A stretch of 64,000 nucleotides of DNA, taken from positions 3,773 through 67,772 of the forward strand of contig CAKPJC010000007.1 of NCBI GenBank assembly GCA_934162535.1, written 5' to 3'. Position 1 is the stretch's first letter, and every line of letters begins with the position of its first letter. This document shows positions 22,926 through 33,478 of the stretch, piece by piece. The DNA comes from an uncultured Clostridia bacterium (lineage in GTDB: Bacteria > Bacillota > Clostridia > TANB77 > CAG-508). The position numbers and the translations under genes were made by a program. The notes beneath the pieces are model-generated. The model worked only from the letters and a program-made list of their open reading frames with translations. It made no database searches and was not told where the DNA came from.

Positions 22926-23450
22926 TTATATTGCTCCATTTACTGCTACTGTTGCTGTTGCTGTACTTGAAATTATGTGTAAATCTTCTCCTTTTATTGT
23001 GTAATATACACTTTTTAATGCTTGTGATAATGTTTTACTATTATTTTTTGCCACAACTGAAACTACATCTCCTTCTTTTAGAAGTATTGTGTCATACGTT
23101 CTAAATTTTTCTTCAATTTGGCTTGTGTATAATGAATAATACACATTTGACCCTACTTCTGAAGGATCAGCATCAATTTGTGACTTTGATGGATTTTCAT
23201 CAAGTATTTTTACTTCTATATCAATATCATATGTGTTTCCTGATGTTGCAAGTCTTGTAATAAATTCATTATAGTCATCACTTCTTATTTGTCCAAGTCT
23301 AACTACTTTGTCTACAAAATCTGCTGTTAGTGTTTGTACTGTTAATTGAGATATGTCATCATTTCTATCTGCTATTGTAACTAATGGCACAACAAACATT
23401 AATAATACTGCTATCATTATTCCTATTATTGAAACTGTTGTTTCTTCCAT
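22926..23450 (-). CDS. pilin-like/minor-pilin-like protein E of the Tad-like locus (N-terminal hydrophobic helix directly after Met)
   Basis: 174 aa: MEETTVSIIGIMIAVLLMFVVPLVTIADRND.... GGGAGG RBS. Last gene of the co-directional cluster. Confidence 0.6.
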   Translation of the reverse strand: MEETTVSIIGIMIAVLLMFVVPLVTIADRNDDISQLTVQTLTADFVDKVVRLGQIRSDDYNEFITRLATSGNTYDIDIEVKILDENPSKSQIDADPSEVGSNVYYSLYTSQIEEKFRTYDTILLKEGDVVSVVAKNNSKTLSQALKSVYYTIKGEDLHIISSTATATVAVNGAI

Positions 23451-23463
23451 TATTTTACCTCCC

Positions 23464-24078
23464 TTAATTTTGTAATATGTATGTTATAACTCTTTTTTTG
23501 GATTTGTTTATATCTAATATTGTTGCTCCATTTTCATCAGTCGTTTTTCCTTCTTTATCCTCTTGATAGTATTCTCCCATTTGCTCTTCAAATTTTCTGT
23601 TTTTGAAGTATTGGTATAATCCTGATGTTCCACCTGTTATACTAGCTACTTCTTTTTTTGCTGGGTCATTTGGTCCTTTTTCTGTTCCACTTAATATGTA
23701 GTCTAATCTGTTTATTGCTCTTTGAGAATCGGCATGTTCTTCGCTTTCCAGGTCTATTTTTGATATGTCCCTTGTATTACCATTTTGATCTTGATATTTG
23801 TATAAGACTAGGTCTGTTCCATCTGCTTTTAAGAAGTGTACTTCAAAGTTTTCTTTATATGCCTTATACATTGTTGGTACTACTGTTTCTATTCCTACTA
23901 TTCTTGTTGAATCGTCTGACGACGATAAGTATGTATATGATGTTTCTCTATCTTTTATTGTTATTATAGAGTCAACTGCTTCTCTTGCTTGTGAAAAAGA
24001 AGATATACATAATGTCAATGCAAGAACTAACATTAGTACACCAAATGCCATTTTCAAAGCTTCAGCTGCATTTTCCAT
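23464..24078 (-). CDS. pilin-like protein D (MENAAEAL... N-terminus)
   Basis: 204 aa: MENAAEALKMAFGVLMLVLALTLCISSF.... It shares the MEN-A-x-x-AL plus hydrophobic helix start with three upstream paralogs. RBS AAGGGGA. Confidence 0.65.
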   Translation of the reverse strand: MENAAEALKMAFGVLMLVLALTLCISSFSQAREAVDSIITIKDRETSYTYLSSSDDSTRIVGIETVVPTMYKAYKENFEVHFLKADGTDLVLYKYQDQNGNTRDISKIDLESEEHADSQRAINRLDYILSGTEKGPNDPAKKEVASITGGTSGLYQYFKNRKFEEQMGEYYQEDKEGKTTDENGATILDINKSKKRVITYILQN

Positions 24079-24101
24079 AGTATATCCCCTTTCTTATATT
24101 A

Positions 24102-24527
24102 TTAATTTTCTGTTACAGTAATTAAGTTGATTAATCCTGTAGCTTGTGTGTATGTACATTTTATTGTATATCTTTTTCCTGTTGGAACTTTTGCTGGTGA
24201 TTGTGTATCAGTTTTTGATAAGTCACATACCCCTCCATCGATTTCAACAAGCTTTGGATTGCTATCATCTGTAGCTCCTTCATCAGCTGCATATTTCATA
24301 TTACTTGTTAATACAGTTTGTACAAGTGCGTTAACTGTTGAACCAGTTTGAGTTTCACCTTCATATCTTGTGAATTGATCATTAAATGCTTTTATTTCTT
24401 GATCACTCATGTTTACATTTTGTACTGTTTCTGCAGCCATATTATAAACTACTAAACCTAGAGATATAATAAGTATTGCTACAAGTATTGCTGCTGCAAT
24501 TAATAGTGCCTTGGTTGCGTTCTCCAT
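24102..24527 (-). CDS. pilin-like protein C (smallest paralog, candidate major subunit)
   Basis: 141 aa: MENATKALLIAAAILVAILIISLGLVVYNMAAETVQN...EIKAFNDQFTRYEG. Strong AAAGGAGGG RBS 8 nt upstream of the ATG. No in-frame upstream start is possible. Confidence 0.7.
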   Translation of the reverse strand: MENATKALLIAAAILVAILIISLGLVVYNMAAETVQNVNMSDQEIKAFNDQFTRYEGETQTGSTVNALVQTVLTSNMKYAADEGATDDSNPKLVEIDGGVCDLSKTDTQSPAKVPTGKRYTIKCTYTQATGLINLITVTEN

Positions 24528-24598
24528 AGTTTTTTCCCTCCTTTTTACTTTTGTTTATTACAAATATCGATAATTTCTTACCGAACTTTATTAACTTA

Positions 24599-31361: not shown

Positions 31362-31375
31362 TCTTGTTCTCCTTA

Positions 31376-32062
31376 CTAAAGATTTTTAATCATGTTTCTT
31401 ATTTTCTTTTCTCCTATTTCATTGTCTATATCATTTACCAAAAATGCAATATTTTCTTTGTATTCATTGCTAAGGTTTCTGAATTTTATTTTTTCGAGTC
31501 TTTGATTTTCTATTATCGCAGATTGGTCTCCATTTTCTAGTAAAAAATATATTTTTTCTTCATTCCATATAACTTTTACCCCTAATGCTAAATAGTCAAA
31601 GTATTCTTCTTCCTCTTTTAACATTTCTTTTGAGTAAAATATTCTCGTCATATGTAATGGTACATCAACTTGTTTTATTATTTGAATTCCTTTTTTCAGA
31701 GAGTATATATCAAATGATGTTACATAATATAGTTTTTCTGAACTTTGCAAATTAAATTGTTCCATTCCCTCATAATTATCTGTATCTATTATCATTATGT
31801 CATATTCAAATTCTTCGTCATTTTCTAGTCCTAGATATTGCCTTATTTGTGTTATTGAGTTAAATCCAACTGCCACATCTATTCCGTCAAATTCAGTTAT
31901 ATATGATACAGTTGGATTTATAACTGGTACAACATATTTGCATTTTTGTTCTATGGTGTTATCTACTACTAGTACTTTTTTTTCTGCCTGTTCTAATACT
32001 CTTGCTACACTTAAAATTAGGTCTGTTTTATCATACGCACCTACAAATCCAATCTTTCTCAT
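31376..32062 (-). CDS. ParA/MinD-fold-like protein that has lost the P-loop lysine (probably non-catalytic)
   Basis: 228 aa: MRKIGFVGAYDKTDLILSVARVLEQAEKKVLVVDNT...YDIMIIDTD. The topology pattern matches the downstream paralog, but GAYDKTD replaces GxxGxGK[ST]. Confidence 0.5.
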   Translation of the reverse strand: MRKIGFVGAYDKTDLILSVARVLEQAEKKVLVVDNTIEQKCKYVVPVINPTVSYITEFDGIDVAVGFNSITQIRQYLGLENDEEFEYDIMIIDTDNYEGMEQFNLQSSEKLYYVTSFDIYSLKKGIQIIKQVDVPLHMTRIFYSKEMLKEEEEYFDYLALGVKVIWNEEKIYFLLENGDQSAIIENQRLEKIKFRNLSNEYKENIAFLVNDIDNEIGEKKIRNMIKNL

Positions 32063-32101
32063 ATTGTTTGTTCTCCTCTTTTCTATTAAAATTATAGTCT
32101 T

Positions 32102-33358
32102 TTATTTTGTTTTTGTTCCACCACCACTTTGTAATGTTTCAAGATATAATTTTCTTGCTTCATCTGCATTTGTTATTCCTGTATTCATTTTTGTTGTAAT
32201 GTTATCATTGTATTCTTCTTGATCAGCATTGTTTATTTCATTTTGTATATAGTTGTTTCTTATTTGTTTTGCTGAATCTGAATATCTTGCTCTTAGTCCT
32301 TCTGATGCACGGTCTAAGATATTTGGATCAGATTCTATTAATGCTGTTACAGCTGAGTTTGGTGTATATGTTGGTAATGAAGATTTTTGTGAACCTGGTT
32401 CAACATATTTGTTTGCATAAATTTTTGTTCCGTTTAGTCCATATGCCTCTACTATTGCACTTGACATTGCTAGTATTTCTTCTTCGTTTAGTTGTACTCT
32501 TATTGTGTCTGCTACATATGTTCCGTCTTCATTCTTTGGAATGTCTACTTGTCTCTTTGGTACTATTACAAAGTTCTCACCATTTGGATACATTATTCTT
32601 ATATCTATGTAATCATCTGTTGCTAAGTCTACTGGTAGTGATACCATGTTGTATTCCTCTACTCTAACGTCATCTGTTACTACTGCATCTGCTTGTACAA
32701 CTAGGTCTTTTGTTACTACTGTATTTTTCTTCATGTCTACTTTTGCTAATATTGCAACATTGTTAAGGTCTATGTATTCTCTTTCTAGTTTTCCTGCATT
32801 TATTTTATATTTATAGCAATTGCCTGTTTTTTCGTCTTCATAGATTCTCGTTGTTCCTGTTGTAGCATCTTCTTGTGTTTCAATTATATAACGTTTCTCT
32901 ATTTCATTTATTGTATCTGTATATGGATCATTTCTTAAACTTACCGTTTTTCCATCACTAAGCTTAGTGTATTGTCCATTAGCATATGTTACTTCGTCTA
33001 AGTTGTCTGCTTCTTGAATATATAGTCCGTTTTCGTCTACTTTTATTTCTTTCCCGTCTTTTGTTTGTAATGTCCACGTTGATACAACACTGTCCATTGC
33101 TGTTGCATTACTTGGTATTGTATTTTTATTTACATTTAATTTTACAAGCATATCATTTGTTATGATTTGCCCTGATTTTACGTCTTGATTTATTGTATAA
33201 ACATTTACTTTTGCAGCTTCTTCTGCTGCTTTAGCATCATTTAATTTTTTCATTTGTAAAAATAATAAAACTATTACTACACCTGTTACTAGTAATGTTA
33301 GTATCATTCCTAATAAAAATGAATTTCTTGCTTTTCTTTGCATTGGGTTTATTGCCAC
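32102..33358 (-). CDS. CpaB/RcpC-like pilus assembly protein (TM anchor plus SAF domain)
   Basis: TM segment SFLLGMILTLLVTGVVIVLLFL is followed by a SAF-like segment VNVYTINQDVKSGQIITNDMLVKLNVNKNTIPSNA. The start is uncertain. I favour GTG 33358, 8 nt after AAGGAGG. The alternatives are ATG 33394 and the track's TTG 33439. Confidence 0.65.
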   Translation of the reverse strand: MAINPMQRKARNSFLLGMILTLLVTGVVIVLLFLQMKKLNDAKAAEEAAKVNVYTINQDVKSGQIITNDMLVKLNVNKNTIPSNATAMDSVVSTWTLQTKDGKEIKVDENGLYIQEADNLDEVTYANGQYTKLSDGKTVSLRNDPYTDTINEIEKRYIIETQEDATTGTTRIYEDEKTGNCYKYKINAGKLEREYIDLNNVAILAKVDMKKNTVVTKDLVVQADAVVTDDVRVEEYNMVSLPVDLATDDYIDIRIMYPNGENFVIVPKRQVDIPKNEDGTYVADTIRVQLNEEEILAMSSAIVEAYGLNGTKIYANKYVEPGSQKSSLPTYTPNSAVTALIESDPNILDRASEGLRARYSDSAKQIRNNYIQNEINNADQEEYNDNITTKMNTGITNADEARKLYLETLQSGGGTKTK

Positions 33359-33478
33359 TTTAAATTCCTCCTTTTTTAACACGATTTTTTTCATGTTATT
33401 CTTTTTTATTTTACACCTTTTTCCGATTAAAATCAACAAACTTTCTTATTGTAACACAAACTTAATATTATTGTAATA

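What the first reader, a model, noticed from the sequence alone, without database searches (positions are those of the whole stretch)
22926..33439. Divergent Tad/type-IV-filament-like locus with no prepilin peptidase and no canonical pilin
**Seen:** eleven tightly packed, co-directional minus-strand genes, each with its own Shine-Dalgarno. In transcription order they are:
- a TM plus SAF-domain protein (CpaB/RcpC-like);
- two ParA/MinD-fold proteins with degenerate P-loops;
- a VirB11/CpaF-type ATPase (GEQGCGKTT Walker A, His box FTHHAK);
- a 689-aa polytopic protein whose C-terminus looks like TadC/T2SS-F;
- six small proteins with N-terminal hydrophobic helices.

**Known:** canonical Tad/Flp systems comprise CpaB, TadZ/CpaE, TadA/CpaF, TadB, TadC, Flp pilin with a G/xxxxEY cleavage motif, TadE/F pseudopilins and the TadV (A24) prepilin peptidase. 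Firmicute versions normally keep Flp or TadE-type G-x-T-x-E N-termini.

**Deviations here:** there is no A24 peptidase gene in or next to the locus. No Flp or G-FTLxE motif appears in any small protein. TadB and TadC appear fused. The ATPase is membrane-tethered.

**Inference:** this may be a distinct, undescribed lineage of type-IV-filament machinery. It sits next to spoIVB, between an adhesin module and sporulation genes, so its function could be adhesion or spore/cell-surface appendage formation.
Basis: partly seen in the sequence, partly recalled or inferred. Interest (0 to 1): 0.8.

Follow-up and report, generated by a model that had tools for sequence, protein, structure and literature searches.

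The report
Published TANB77 Tad-like pilus cluster
This is a real, very divergent Tad-type pilus-like gene cluster, but it was already described in 2024 as the conserved "pilus gene cluster" of the uncultured gut clade TANB77. What remains open is that its pilin-like proteins have no leader peptide and no prepilin peptidase is in sight.

Summary
The eleven co-directional minus-strand genes are real and form an operon-like block (22926-33358; the first gene starts at a GTG at 33358, not 33439). Only the ATPase is robustly assignable by sequence, as TadA/CpaF-type. The SAF/CpaB-like and ParA-like assignments are sub-threshold. The 689-aa membrane protein and all six small proteins match no Pfam, NCBIfam or PDB family.

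Gene order is conserved in about 80 related species of uncultured gut Clostridia. It matches gene for gene the "pilus gene cluster" of order TANB77 published in Nat Commun 2024 (PMC11680825), so it is not undescribed.

Points not found in that paper:
- Four small proteins are paralogues with an invariant N-terminus, MENA[ST]KAL plus a hydrophobic helix, that starts at Met1 with no room for a leader.
- No A24 peptidase lies in the 64-kb window, within 10 kb of the ATPase in 80 species, or on a complete related plasmid.
- The same module sits on large Bacillales and Clostridium plasmids.
- The 689-aa protein aligns collinearly with two separate genes of a Clostridium botulinum plasmid locus, which supports a fusion.
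- The paper's "pilin 938" gene is absent here.

A link to sporulation is not supported.

The parts
33408..33490 (-). Conserved upstream control region: tandem ATATTACAA repeats (33490-33482 and 33479-33471, overlapping the end of the HAD gene), a TTACAA copy, then a sigma-A-like promoter (TTGATT at 33436-33431, 17-nt spacer, TAAAAT at 33413-33408).
   Evidence: Alignment of 66 species: columns 80-99% conserved. Sequence read. The promoter pattern is listed. The motif is not enriched window-wide.
   Evidence: ORF. Start and SD conserved. TM helix. SAF 0.0038 and TIGR03177 CpaB 4.8e-4, both below cut-off. Plasmid homologues (E=1e-26) are annotated as SAF-domain proteins. No PDB sequence hit.
31376..32062 (-). 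g02: 228-aa soluble ParA/MinD-like (TadZ-like) protein without a P-loop.
   Evidence: CbiA 0.084 and AAA_31 0.059. MinD 0.023 with a family profile. No GK[ST] motif. Plasmid homologue E=2e-24.
30492..31361 (-). g03: 289-aa ParA/CpaE-like protein that retains GKT.
   Evidence: CbiA 0.062. Family profile hits the ParA-family ATPase 3ea0 at 2.4e-4, plus Get3 and Soj. GKT at residue 15. Plasmid homologue E=5e-34, annotated ParA.
28520..30487 (-). g04: 655-aa TadA/CpaF-type secretion ATPase with an N-terminal TM anchor and an extension of about 250 aa.
   Evidence: PDB CpaF 3.6e-8 over residues 272-540. TIGR03819 3.9e-9 and T2SSE 3.7e-4. Motifs. TM anchor in 80/80 orthologues. Median 82% identity across species.
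26414..28483 (-). g05: 689-aa polytopic protein, inferred to be a fused platform equivalent to TadC plus TadB.
   Evidence: About 8 TM segments. No Pfam, NCBIfam or PDB hit, including 66 diverse homologues. HHalign matches two adjacent C. botulinum plasmid genes: 298 aa to residues 1-329 (90%) and 359 aa to residues 304-684 (97.8%). Foldseek TadC/TadB similarity is reported in PMC11680825.
25570..26385 (-). g06: 271-aa pilin-like paralogue, N-terminus MENATKAL plus a helix.
   Evidence: HHalign to the g09 family 99.6% over residues 1-83. In-frame stop immediately upstream.
25077..25544 (-). g07: 155-aa pilin-like paralogue, N-terminus MEENASKAL.
   Evidence: HHalign to the g09 family 99.6% over the full length. 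Matches the pTHECO01 161-aa protein at 8.6e-5.
24599..25033 (-). g08: 144-aa protein with a signal-peptide-like N-terminus (MKK plus a hydrophobic stretch); its head region is related to that of g09.
   Evidence: HHalign 86% between g09 residues 41-84 and g08 residues 29-72. Its counterpart 934 is predicted to have a signal peptide.
24102..24527 (-). g09: 141-aa pilin-like protein and candidate major subunit. The N-terminal 13 residues are invariant in 99 homologues; duplicated in several species.
   Evidence: Alignment A1. AF2 model at pLDDT 86 shows helix 2-36 plus an alpha/beta head. No Foldseek match. Strong SD. Duplications.
23464..24078 (-). g10: 204-aa pilin-like paralogue, N-terminus MENAAEAL.
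   Evidence: HHalign to the g09 family 97.1% over the first 47 residues.
22926..23450 (-). g11: 174-aa bitopic protein of a separate family (conserved Pro22 and DRxDD after the helix), also leaderless.
   Evidence: Plasmid homologues at 4e-10 and 1.5e-5. Only sub-threshold DUF4320 and archaeal flagellin hits. Unrelated to g09.

Best explanation
The locus is the chromosomal, vertically inherited Tad-like (type IVc-related) filament machine of the uncultured gut order TANB77.

**Shown**
- A membrane-anchored CpaF/TadA-type ATPase.
- A fused two-module polytopic partner encoded directly downstream of it.
- A SAF/CpaB-like bitopic protein and two ParA/TadZ-like proteins.
- A family of four paralogous small bitopic proteins with an invariant N-terminal helix, plus two further small membrane proteins.

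**Inferred**
- The hexameric ATPase drives the platform to extract the MENA[ST]KAL-helix proteins from the membrane.
- These proteins stack through their conserved N-terminal helices into a surface fibre that crosses the Gram-positive wall. g09 would be the major subunit and g06, g07 and g10 minor subunits.
- The fibre serves adhesion or aggregation in the gut.
- Because the subunits are translated without a leader, no prepilin-peptidase step is needed.
For: - **ATPase assignment:** PDB CpaF 3.6e-8 with intact Walker A, Walker B and His boxes. Sources annotate orthologues as TadA or CpaF.
- **Tad-like gene order:** SAF protein, two ParA-like proteins, ATPase, platform, small proteins. This order is conserved in about 80 species and on Firmicutes megaplasmids, with significant pairwise similarity for seven components.
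- **Platform:** it aligns collinearly with the two genes that follow a T2SSE ATPase in a C. botulinum plasmid locus. That locus also has an RcpC-like gene and pilins with classical leaders.
- **Small proteins:** the N-terminal 24 residues of g09 are invariant or nearly so while the head diverges. Four paralogues share this helix.
- **Model of g09:** a long N-terminal helix plus a small alpha/beta head, pLDDT 86.
- **No room for a leader:** in-frame stops lie 0-17 codons upstream, with no alternative start for any pilin-like gene, and SDs directly upstream, in both the window and the plasmids.
- **No A24 peptidase:** none in the window, in 80 loci, or on the complete plasmid pTHECO01.
- **Constraint:** the ATPase is far more conserved (median 82% identity) than the neighbouring spoIVB (57%) or HAD gene (65%).
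- **Independent report:** the same assignments were made from AlphaFold plus Foldseek in PMC11680825.
Against: - No filament has ever been seen; the clade is uncultured.
- The small proteins match no pilin family by Pfam, NCBIfam, PDB sequence, HHalign against GspG or classical-leader pilins (probability below 1%), or Foldseek.
- There is no Gly at position -1 and no Glu at position 5.
- The platform fails Pfam T2SSF in all 66 diverse members. HHalign to Rhizobium TadB/TadC reaches only 21-38%, and to GspF 0.2%.
- My AF2 model of the platform was unusable, at pLDDT 54.
- A prepilin peptidase elsewhere in the genome could not be excluded.
Confidence: 0.55

Rival explanations
1. The machine builds only a short pseudopilus or piston, like T2SS or Com systems. 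Its role is to push proteins or DNA through the thick wall, for example to display large surface proteins, and not to make a long adhesive pilus.
For: The plasmid modules are always followed by SLH or cell-wall-binding proteins and a giant DUF5704 surface protein. In TANB77 a large 12th protein, or an LRR-dockerin protein, follows. Several minor-pilin-like paralogues are present and no small Flp-sized subunit.
Against: No secretion substrate is identifiable. g09 is duplicated and fast-evolving like an exposed major subunit. No DNA-uptake genes lie in the locus.
Confidence: 0.2
2. The MENA[ST]KAL proteins are not polymer subunits. They are bitopic assembly or alignment components, comparable to PilN/PilO/GspM, whose conserved short cytoplasmic N-terminus docks onto the ParA-like proteins or the ATPase. 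The true fibre subunit would be something else or absent.
For: They have no leader, no Gly at -1 and no Glu at +5. No pilin fold match was found. Two of 99 homologues give faint T2SSM hits. PilN-type proteins are known to use a conserved N-terminal peptide to bind a cytoplasmic partner (my own knowledge).
Against: Conservation spans the whole transmembrane helix, not just a short cytoplasmic peptide. Four paralogues share the helix but have different heads, which is the major/minor pilin pattern. No other subunit candidate exists in the operon.
Confidence: 0.12
3. The module is in origin and function a conjugation accessory: a mating-pair-stabilising pilus, by analogy with the thin pilus of IncI plasmids. 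In TANB77 it would be a domesticated or ICE-derived copy.
For: Close homologues sit on large plasmids next to Tcp-type T4SS genes, coupling proteins and relaxases. pBsph-like plasmids are conjugative. The best NCBIfam ATPase hit is a TadA family described as conjugal-transfer-associated.
Against: In TANB77 the locus sits at one fixed chromosomal site (HAD-cluster-spoIVB) in about 80 species. No relaxase, coupling protein or VirB4 was noticed among the ORFs examined, though the window's other ORFs were not all annotated. The paper finds it in 122 of 129 species, which indicates vertical inheritance.
Confidence: 0.08
4. It is a sporulation-linked apparatus (a spore appendage or a mother-cell/forespore channel) co-regulated with the adjacent spoIVB.
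For: spoIVB lies 56 nt downstream, is co-directional with no terminator-like site in the gap, and keeps this position in 59-64 of 80 species. A SASP gene is nearby.
Against: The conserved promoter resembles sigma-A, not the sigma-E, -F, -G or -K consensus as I recall them. Plasmid homologues have no sporulation neighbours of this kind. Nothing resembles SpoIIIA or Ena proteins in the profile searches.
Confidence: 0.05

Closest known systems
TANB77 conserved pilus gene cluster (Kim et al., Nat Commun 2024, PMC11680825; genes 927-938 of HRGM_Genome_2725)
   Same: Same gene order, sizes and predicted topologies: CpaB-like, two ParA/TadZ/CpaE-like, a TadA with 1 TMH, a roughly 690-aa 8-TMH fused TadC+TadB, then small 1-TMH proteins. 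A related locus here reproduces the published length series. Same habitat and type of organism: uncultured, low-GC, reduced-genome gut Clostridia.
   Different: The 12th gene, "pilin 938", which is the protein tested in the paper, is absent from this window and from about 9 species where g11 abuts spoIVB directly, including the closest relatives. The paper does not mention prepilin peptidase, leader peptides, sporulation neighbours or plasmid relatives. Identity with TANB77 is inferred from architecture, not from a direct sequence comparison.
Canonical Tad/Flp (type IVc) pilus, e.g. Caulobacter Cpa and the Rhizobium etli pRetIE4803d locus
   Same: CpaF-type ATPase, a CpaB-like SAF protein, a ParA/TadZ-type protein and a platform directly after the ATPase.
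   Different: The ATPase core is only about 25-28% identical. The platform is fused and invisible to Pfam T2SSF, whereas Rhizobium TadB and TadC score 3e-17 and 1.5e-14. There is no Flp, TadE/F, secretin or TadV. The subunits are 141-271 aa and leaderless. The ATPase is membrane-anchored with a long N-terminal extension.
Uncharacterised Tad-like modules on Firmicutes megaplasmids (Thermobacillus pTHECO01, Lysinibacillus sphaericus pBsph, Clostridium argentinense pRSJ17_1, Paenibacillus, Cytobacillus, C. botulinum)
   Same: Same core order, with significant similarity for g01-g05, a g09-like protein (MSTNASKAL...) and g11. ATPase 37-58% identical and platform up to 39% identical over 633 aa. 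The small proteins are also leaderless.
   Different: They are plasmid-borne and sit next to Tcp-type conjugation genes. They have fewer pilin-like paralogues and are followed by SLH or cell-wall-binding, DUF5704, GGDEF and HD genes. The annotated ATPases of two of the three examined have no hydrophobic N-terminal segment. [quoted passage not shown]
Clostridium botulinum p1_CDC51232 Tad-like locus (L086)
   Same: An RcpC-like protein, a T2SSE ATPase, and two platform genes that align to the two halves of the 689-aa protein at 90% and 97.8% HHalign probability.
   Different: The platform is split into 298 and 359 aa. The ATPase is short (468 aa). The pilins are small and carry a classical leader...NKKGG followed by LSQLLSVVLLL.

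Membership tests
Tad/Flp (type IVc) pilus system | TadA/CpaF-type secretion ATPase (T2SSE fold; Walker A, Walker B, Asp and His boxes) | tested here: met
   PDB CpaF 3.6e-8 and motifs present. Pfam T2SSE is below cut-off in the window protein (19.7 vs 24.9 bits), but many close orthologues carry PF00437.
Tad/Flp (type IVc) pilus system | TadB/TadC platform proteins with a Pfam T2SSF domain | tested here: inconclusive
   0 of 66 diverse homologues hit T2SSF, and there is no PDB sequence hit. HHalign to Rhizobium TadB/TadC is 21-38% and to GspF 0.2%. The two halves are not detectably similar to each other. The AF2 model is unusable. Position after the ATPase, topology and collinearity with two separate genes favour membership, as does the published Foldseek match.
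Tad/Flp (type IVc) pilus system | CpaB/RcpC SAF-domain protein | tested here: inconclusive
   SAF 0.0038 and TIGR03177 4.8e-4, both below cut-off, and no PDB hit. Plasmid homologues (E=1e-26) are annotated as SAF-domain proteins.
Tad/Flp (type IVc) pilus system | TadZ/CpaE ParA-like protein | tested here: inconclusive
   g03 profile vs ParA-family 3ea0 gives 2.4e-4. g02 vs MinD gives 0.023 and g02 has no P-loop.
Tad/Flp (type IVc) pilus system | Flp pilin with a G/XXXXEY processing motif, plus TadE/TadF pseudopilins | tested here: not met
   No Flp_Fap or TadE hit in the window proteins or among the most-matched families of their homologues. No Gly precedes the hydrophobic helix.
Tad/Flp (type IVc) pilus system | TadV (peptidase A24) serving the system | tested here: not met
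   Absent from the 64-kb window, from 10 kb either side of the ATPase in 80 species, and from the complete pTHECO01. The method was validated on GspO. The rest of the genome could not be searched with these tools.
Type IV pilins (class III signal peptide proteins) | Short positively charged leader ending in Gly, cleaved by an A24 peptidase, with Glu at +5 | tested here: not met
   The N-terminus is Met1-Glu2-Asn3-Ala4-(Ser/Thr)5-Lys6. In-frame stops lie 0-11 codons upstream in the window with no alternative start.
Type IV pilins (class III signal peptide proteins) | Conserved hydrophobic N-terminal alpha-helix followed by a globular head (lollipop fold) | tested here: inconclusive
   The AF2 model (pLDDT 86) has helix 2-36 plus an alpha/beta head, and the helix is invariant across homologues. 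Foldseek against PDB finds no pilin (best E=0.77), and HHalign to GspG or the C. botulinum pilins is below 1%.
TANB77 pilus gene cluster (PMC11680825) | Conserved run of genes 927-937 with the published order, sizes and topologies, in an uncultured gut Clostridia genome | tested here: met
   Order and sizes match. Synteny holds in about 80 species of uncultured gut Clostridia. No direct sequence comparison was possible because no supplementary text is held.
TANB77 pilus gene cluster (PMC11680825) | 12th gene: "pilin 938" (about 600 aa, 1 TMH) | tested here: not met
   Present after g11 in 60 of 71 related loci but absent from the whole window by tblastn. Also absent where g11 abuts spoIVB in L001, L002, L016, L020, L031, L035, L044, L054 and L075.

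The most novel reading that the evidence does not exclude
The TANB77 chromosomal cluster and the Firmicutes megaplasmid modules together form an unrecognised class of type IV filament machines. Its subunits would be made without a leader and assembled without any prepilin peptidase, using a fused platform and a membrane-anchored ATPase. That would break the rule that all type IV filament subunits are processed by an A24-family peptidase.
Probability: 0.3. Interest if true: 0.8.

Novelty: already known. Interest (0 to 1): 0.45.

Why it matters
The cluster is the signature trait of TANB77, a prevalent uncultured gut order whose abundance is associated with response to cancer checkpoint therapy. 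One of its proteins has already been tested as an immune stimulant (PMC11680825).

It is still unknown what the machine builds and how. If its subunits really assemble without leader cleavage, that would be a new assembly mode within the type IV filament superfamily.

The homologous modules on plasmids of cultivable Lysinibacillus, Paenibacillus and Thermobacillus strains offer a tractable route to experiments that are impossible in TANB77 itself.

For anyone using "pilin 938" as a marker or therapeutic, it also matters that a subclade including this genome lacks that gene.

Tried and rejected
- **Structure of the 689-aa protein.** The AF2 model from 59 close homologues reached only pLDDT 54. 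Foldseek on it gave nothing meaningful, so it was not used as evidence.
- **Transitive route to T2SSF.** I ran a deep profile search (1,194 clusters at 50% identity) and then Pfam on 66 diverse members. There was no T2SSF hit.
- **Internal repeat test.** The two halves of the platform are not detectably similar: HHalign probability 3.6%.
- **HHalign of the platform family.** Against Rhizobium TadB/TadC and E. coli GspF the result was weak or null.
- **Foldseek of the confident g09 model against PDB.** No pilin, best E=0.77.
- **Profile searches against PDB sequences** for g01, g09, g11 and the 12th-gene family: nothing significant.
- **Sporulation link.** Rejected as a leading hypothesis because the promoter is sigma-A-like and the plasmid homologues lack spoIVB.
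- **Mobile-element origin of the window locus.** Rejected because the locus sits at a fixed, syntenic chromosomal site.
- **pXO16 tip locus as a relative.** The review gives no sign of a Tad-like ATPase there, so I did not pursue it.
- **ATATTACAA as a regulon motif.** It is not enriched in the window: 7 matches against 3.9 expected.
- **Literature on leaderless type IV pilins.** Nothing relevant found.

Full report
**1. The observation**

The region holds eleven co-directional minus-strand ORFs of 445, 228, 289, 655, 689, 271, 155, 144, 141, 204 and 174 aa. Intergenic gaps are 4-71 nt, and SD-like motifs precede most starts. No terminator-like site falls in an intergenic gap, including the 56-nt gap before spoIVB.

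An alignment of the upstream region from 66 related species shows a conserved SD followed by (A/G)TG-GCA-A(C/T)A-AAT-CCA-ATG. In the window this is the GTG at 33358, giving 418 aa.

Hydropathy gives one N-terminal TM helix in g01, in the ATPase and in each small protein, and about eight TM segments in the 689-aa protein. The ATPase anchor is present in 80 of 80 orthologues.

The flanks are as stated. They are a SpoIVB S55 peptidase (1.6e-82), an LRR protein that also carries a dockerin, a cohesin protein, a HAD hydrolase, an alpha/beta SASP and a capsule locus.

**2. How divergent the proteins are**

No protein reaches a curated Pfam or NCBIfam cut-off.

- **ATPase.** It is the only solid assignment: CpaF structures at 3.6e-8 over residues 272-540, TIGR03819 at 3.9e-9 and T2SSE at 3.7e-4.
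- **g01.** Weak SAF and CpaB signals (0.0038 and 4.8e-4).
- **g03.** Its family profile hits a ParA-family ATPase (3ea0, 2.4e-4) and Get3/Soj proteins.
- **g02.** Marginal (MinD, 0.023), and it has lost its P-loop.
- **689-aa protein.** It matches nothing, either alone, as a profile of close homologues, or as a profile of 66 diverse homologues. None of those 66 hits Pfam T2SSF.
- **Small proteins.** No pilin family appears, nor among the families most often matched by 99 g09 homologues, 40 g11 homologues or 36 homologues of a 12th gene found in relatives.

**3. Where it occurs**

The ATPase finds at least 557 stretches in the species-level genome collection. The best 80 all come from uncultured gut Clostridia MAGs, one of them a complete 1.55-Mb chromosome. 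The window's GC content is about 28%.

In these loci the order HAD, g01 to g11, spoIVB is conserved. Median identities to the window are:

| Gene | Median identity |
|---|---|
| ATPase (g04) | 82% |
| Platform (g05) | 66% |
| HAD | 65% |
| spoIVB | 57% |
| Small proteins (g06-g11) | 31-44% |

So the motor is under unusually strong constraint while the putative subunits evolve fast.

**4. It is already published**

A full-text search found Kim et al., Nat Commun 2024 (PMC11680825). Its Table 1 and Fig. 6 describe a stretch of 10-14 genes conserved in 122 of 129 TANB77 species:

- 927: CpaB-like, 358 aa, 1 TMH
- 928: TadZ-like, 231 aa
- 929: CpaE-like, 280 aa
- 930: TadA/CpaF, 640 aa, 1 TMH
- 931: 693 aa, 8 TMH, TadC-like first half and TadB-like second half by Foldseek
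- 932-937: small 1-TMH "pilin-like" proteins
- 938: 621 aa

The window matches this gene for gene, and related locus L018 reproduces the published length series closely. I could not compare sequences directly because no supplement is held. The identification therefore rests on architecture, habitat and organism type, and I consider it secure.

The paper contains no occurrence of "prepilin", "peptidase", "spore" or "sporulation". Later papers only cite it, and the clade is still uncultured.

**5. What I found beyond the paper**

*(a) Leaderless subunits.*
- g06, g07, g09 and g10 share the N-terminus M-E-N-A-(S/T)-K-A-L followed by about 20 hydrophobic residues. It is more than 90% conserved across roughly 80 species.
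- In 99 g09 homologues that are only about 55% identical overall, residues 1-13 and most of 15-24 are invariant.
- In-frame stops lie 0-11 codons upstream with no alternative start, and SDs sit directly upstream. There is physically no room for a leader.
- Profile comparison shows that the four are paralogues: 97-99.6% probability to g09. g08 shares part of the head, and g11 is a separate family.
- The g09 model (pLDDT 86) has a 35-residue N-terminal helix and a small alpha/beta head. Foldseek finds no pilin or anything else significant.

*(b) No peptidase.*
- A scan for polytopic ORFs with a GxGD motif finds none in the window. A stricter GxGD[VAILFM][KR] version finds none in the 80 loci.
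- The GxGD scan also finds none on the complete 149-kb plasmid pTHECO01, which likewise has no annotated prepilin peptidase.
- The scan criteria detect E. coli GspO as a positive control, and tblastn with GspO is negative everywhere.
- The rest of the TANB77 genome could not be searched.
- Absence from the locus alone is not unusual: peptidases are often encoded apart, and all MSH loci lack one.

*(c) Plasmid relatives.*
- Full-length ATPase homologues (37-58% identity) lie on large plasmids of Thermobacillus, Cohnella, Paenibacillus, Cytobacillus, Alkalihalophilus, Sporosarcina, Lysinibacillus and Clostridium argentinense/botulinum.
- The three I opened have the same order. Similarities to the window are g01 1e-26, g02 2e-24, g03 5e-34 and the platform 39% identity over 633 aa.
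- They also carry a g09-like protein beginning MSTNASKAL, a g11-like protein, and a homologue of the 12th gene.
- These modules are followed by SLH or cell-wall-binding proteins, a giant DUF5704 protein and GGDEF and HD genes. On pTHECO01 the module sits a few kb from a Tcp-type conjugation module.
- In the ATPase core this clade is 39-69% identical to the window, against 25-28% for canonical CpaF.
- The paper's statement of exclusivity to TANB77 was made within a gut genome catalogue, so this extends that statement and does not contradict it.

*(d) Fusion.*
- The 689-aa family profile aligns collinearly with two adjacent genes that follow a T2SSE ATPase on C. botulinum plasmid p1_CDC51232. 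The 298-aa protein covers residues 1-329 (90%) and the 359-aa protein covers residues 304-684 (97.8%, E=7e-13).
- That locus also has an RcpC-like gene and small pilins with a classical ...NKKGG/LSQLL leader. It looks like an intermediate between canonical Tad loci and this one.
- The final link to T2SSF remains unproven by sequence. The C. botulinum proteins also miss T2SSF, while the Rhizobium controls score 3e-17 and 1.5e-14.

*(e) Missing gene.*
The 12th gene, the paper's 938, follows g11 in 60 of 71 loci. It is absent from the whole window and from about 9 species where g11 abuts spoIVB directly, including the closest relatives.

*(f) Regulation.*
A block of tandem ATATTACAA repeats plus a TTGATT-17-TAAAAT promoter is conserved upstream of g01.

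**6. Mechanism**

The best-supported reading (about 0.55) is a Tad-like surface filament machine.

- **Shown:** the CpaF-type motor, its membrane anchor, the fused two-module membrane partner, the SAF-like and ParA-like accessories, and a four-member family of bitopic proteins whose whole N-terminal helix is invariant while the heads diverge.
- **Inferred:** the helices pack into a fibre core, g09 is the major subunit, the fibre mediates adhesion or aggregation, and no leader cleavage is needed.

Four rivals remain:

- a short pseudopilus or piston for surface-protein display (0.2);
- the small proteins as PilN/O-like assembly parts and not subunits (0.12);
- a conjugation accessory (0.08), which is disfavoured for TANB77 by the fixed chromosomal synteny;
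- a sporulation-linked apparatus (0.05), which is disfavoured by the sigma-A-like promoter and by plasmid homologues that lack spoIVB.

**7. Verdict**

Interest is moderate. The residual novelty is the leaderless, apparently peptidase-independent subunit family, together with the link to cultivable megaplasmid hosts that makes it testable.

Noticed in passing
window 17227-21695 (-): The 1232-aa LRR protein downstream of spoIVB ends in a type I dockerin domain, and the next gene (17227-17970, 247 aa) has a cohesin domain. This looks like a cohesin-dockerin surface-anchoring pair. The LRR protein is present in only 4 of 80 related loci.
   Followed up: partly
window 33408-33490 (-): A strongly conserved non-coding block lies upstream of the operon: two tandem ATATTACAA copies (one overlapping the HAD stop codon), a further TTACAA, then TTGATT-17-TAAAAT. 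Columns are 80-99% conserved in 66 species, so it is possibly an operator plus promoter. The motif is not enriched elsewhere in the window.
   Followed up: partly
window 22870-22925, and related loci such as L008:17391-19130: The gene for the paper's experimentally tested "pilin 938" (about 450-614 aa, starting MKIQNLAVI...) follows g11 in 60 of 71 related loci. It is missing from this window and from about 9 species where g11 abuts spoIVB directly, including the closest relatives.
   Followed up: yes
L086:6832-13225 (C. botulinum plasmid p1_CDC51232): An intermediate Tad-like locus with an RcpC-like gene, a 468-aa T2SSE ATPase, a split platform (298 + 359 aa, annotated hypothetical, no Pfam T2SSF hit) and small pilins with a classical KKGG/LSQLL leader.
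   Followed up: partly
L081, L082, L083 and L087 (plasmids pTHECO01, pBsph, pRSJ17_1): The plasmid-borne Tad-like modules are consistently followed by an SLH or cell-wall-binding protein and a roughly 1000-1200-aa protein (annotated DUF5704 on two of the three plasmids). Two of the three also have GGDEF and HD-domain genes downstream. On pTHECO01 the module lies next to a Tcp-type conjugation module. This suggests a link to c-di-GMP-controlled surface behaviour or mating.
   Followed up: no
window 9630-9822 (-) and 16573-16748 (-): A 6S RNA gene (83.8 bits) and two tandem tRNA-Gly(TCC) genes.
   Followed up: no
window 34824-55000 (-): A long co-directional capsule/exopolysaccharide locus (CpsB phosphatase, tyrosine-kinase-like ParA-fold protein, a probable Wzz-like chain-length determinant, and many further minus-strand ORFs that were not annotated) lies immediately upstream of the HAD gene.
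   Followed up: no
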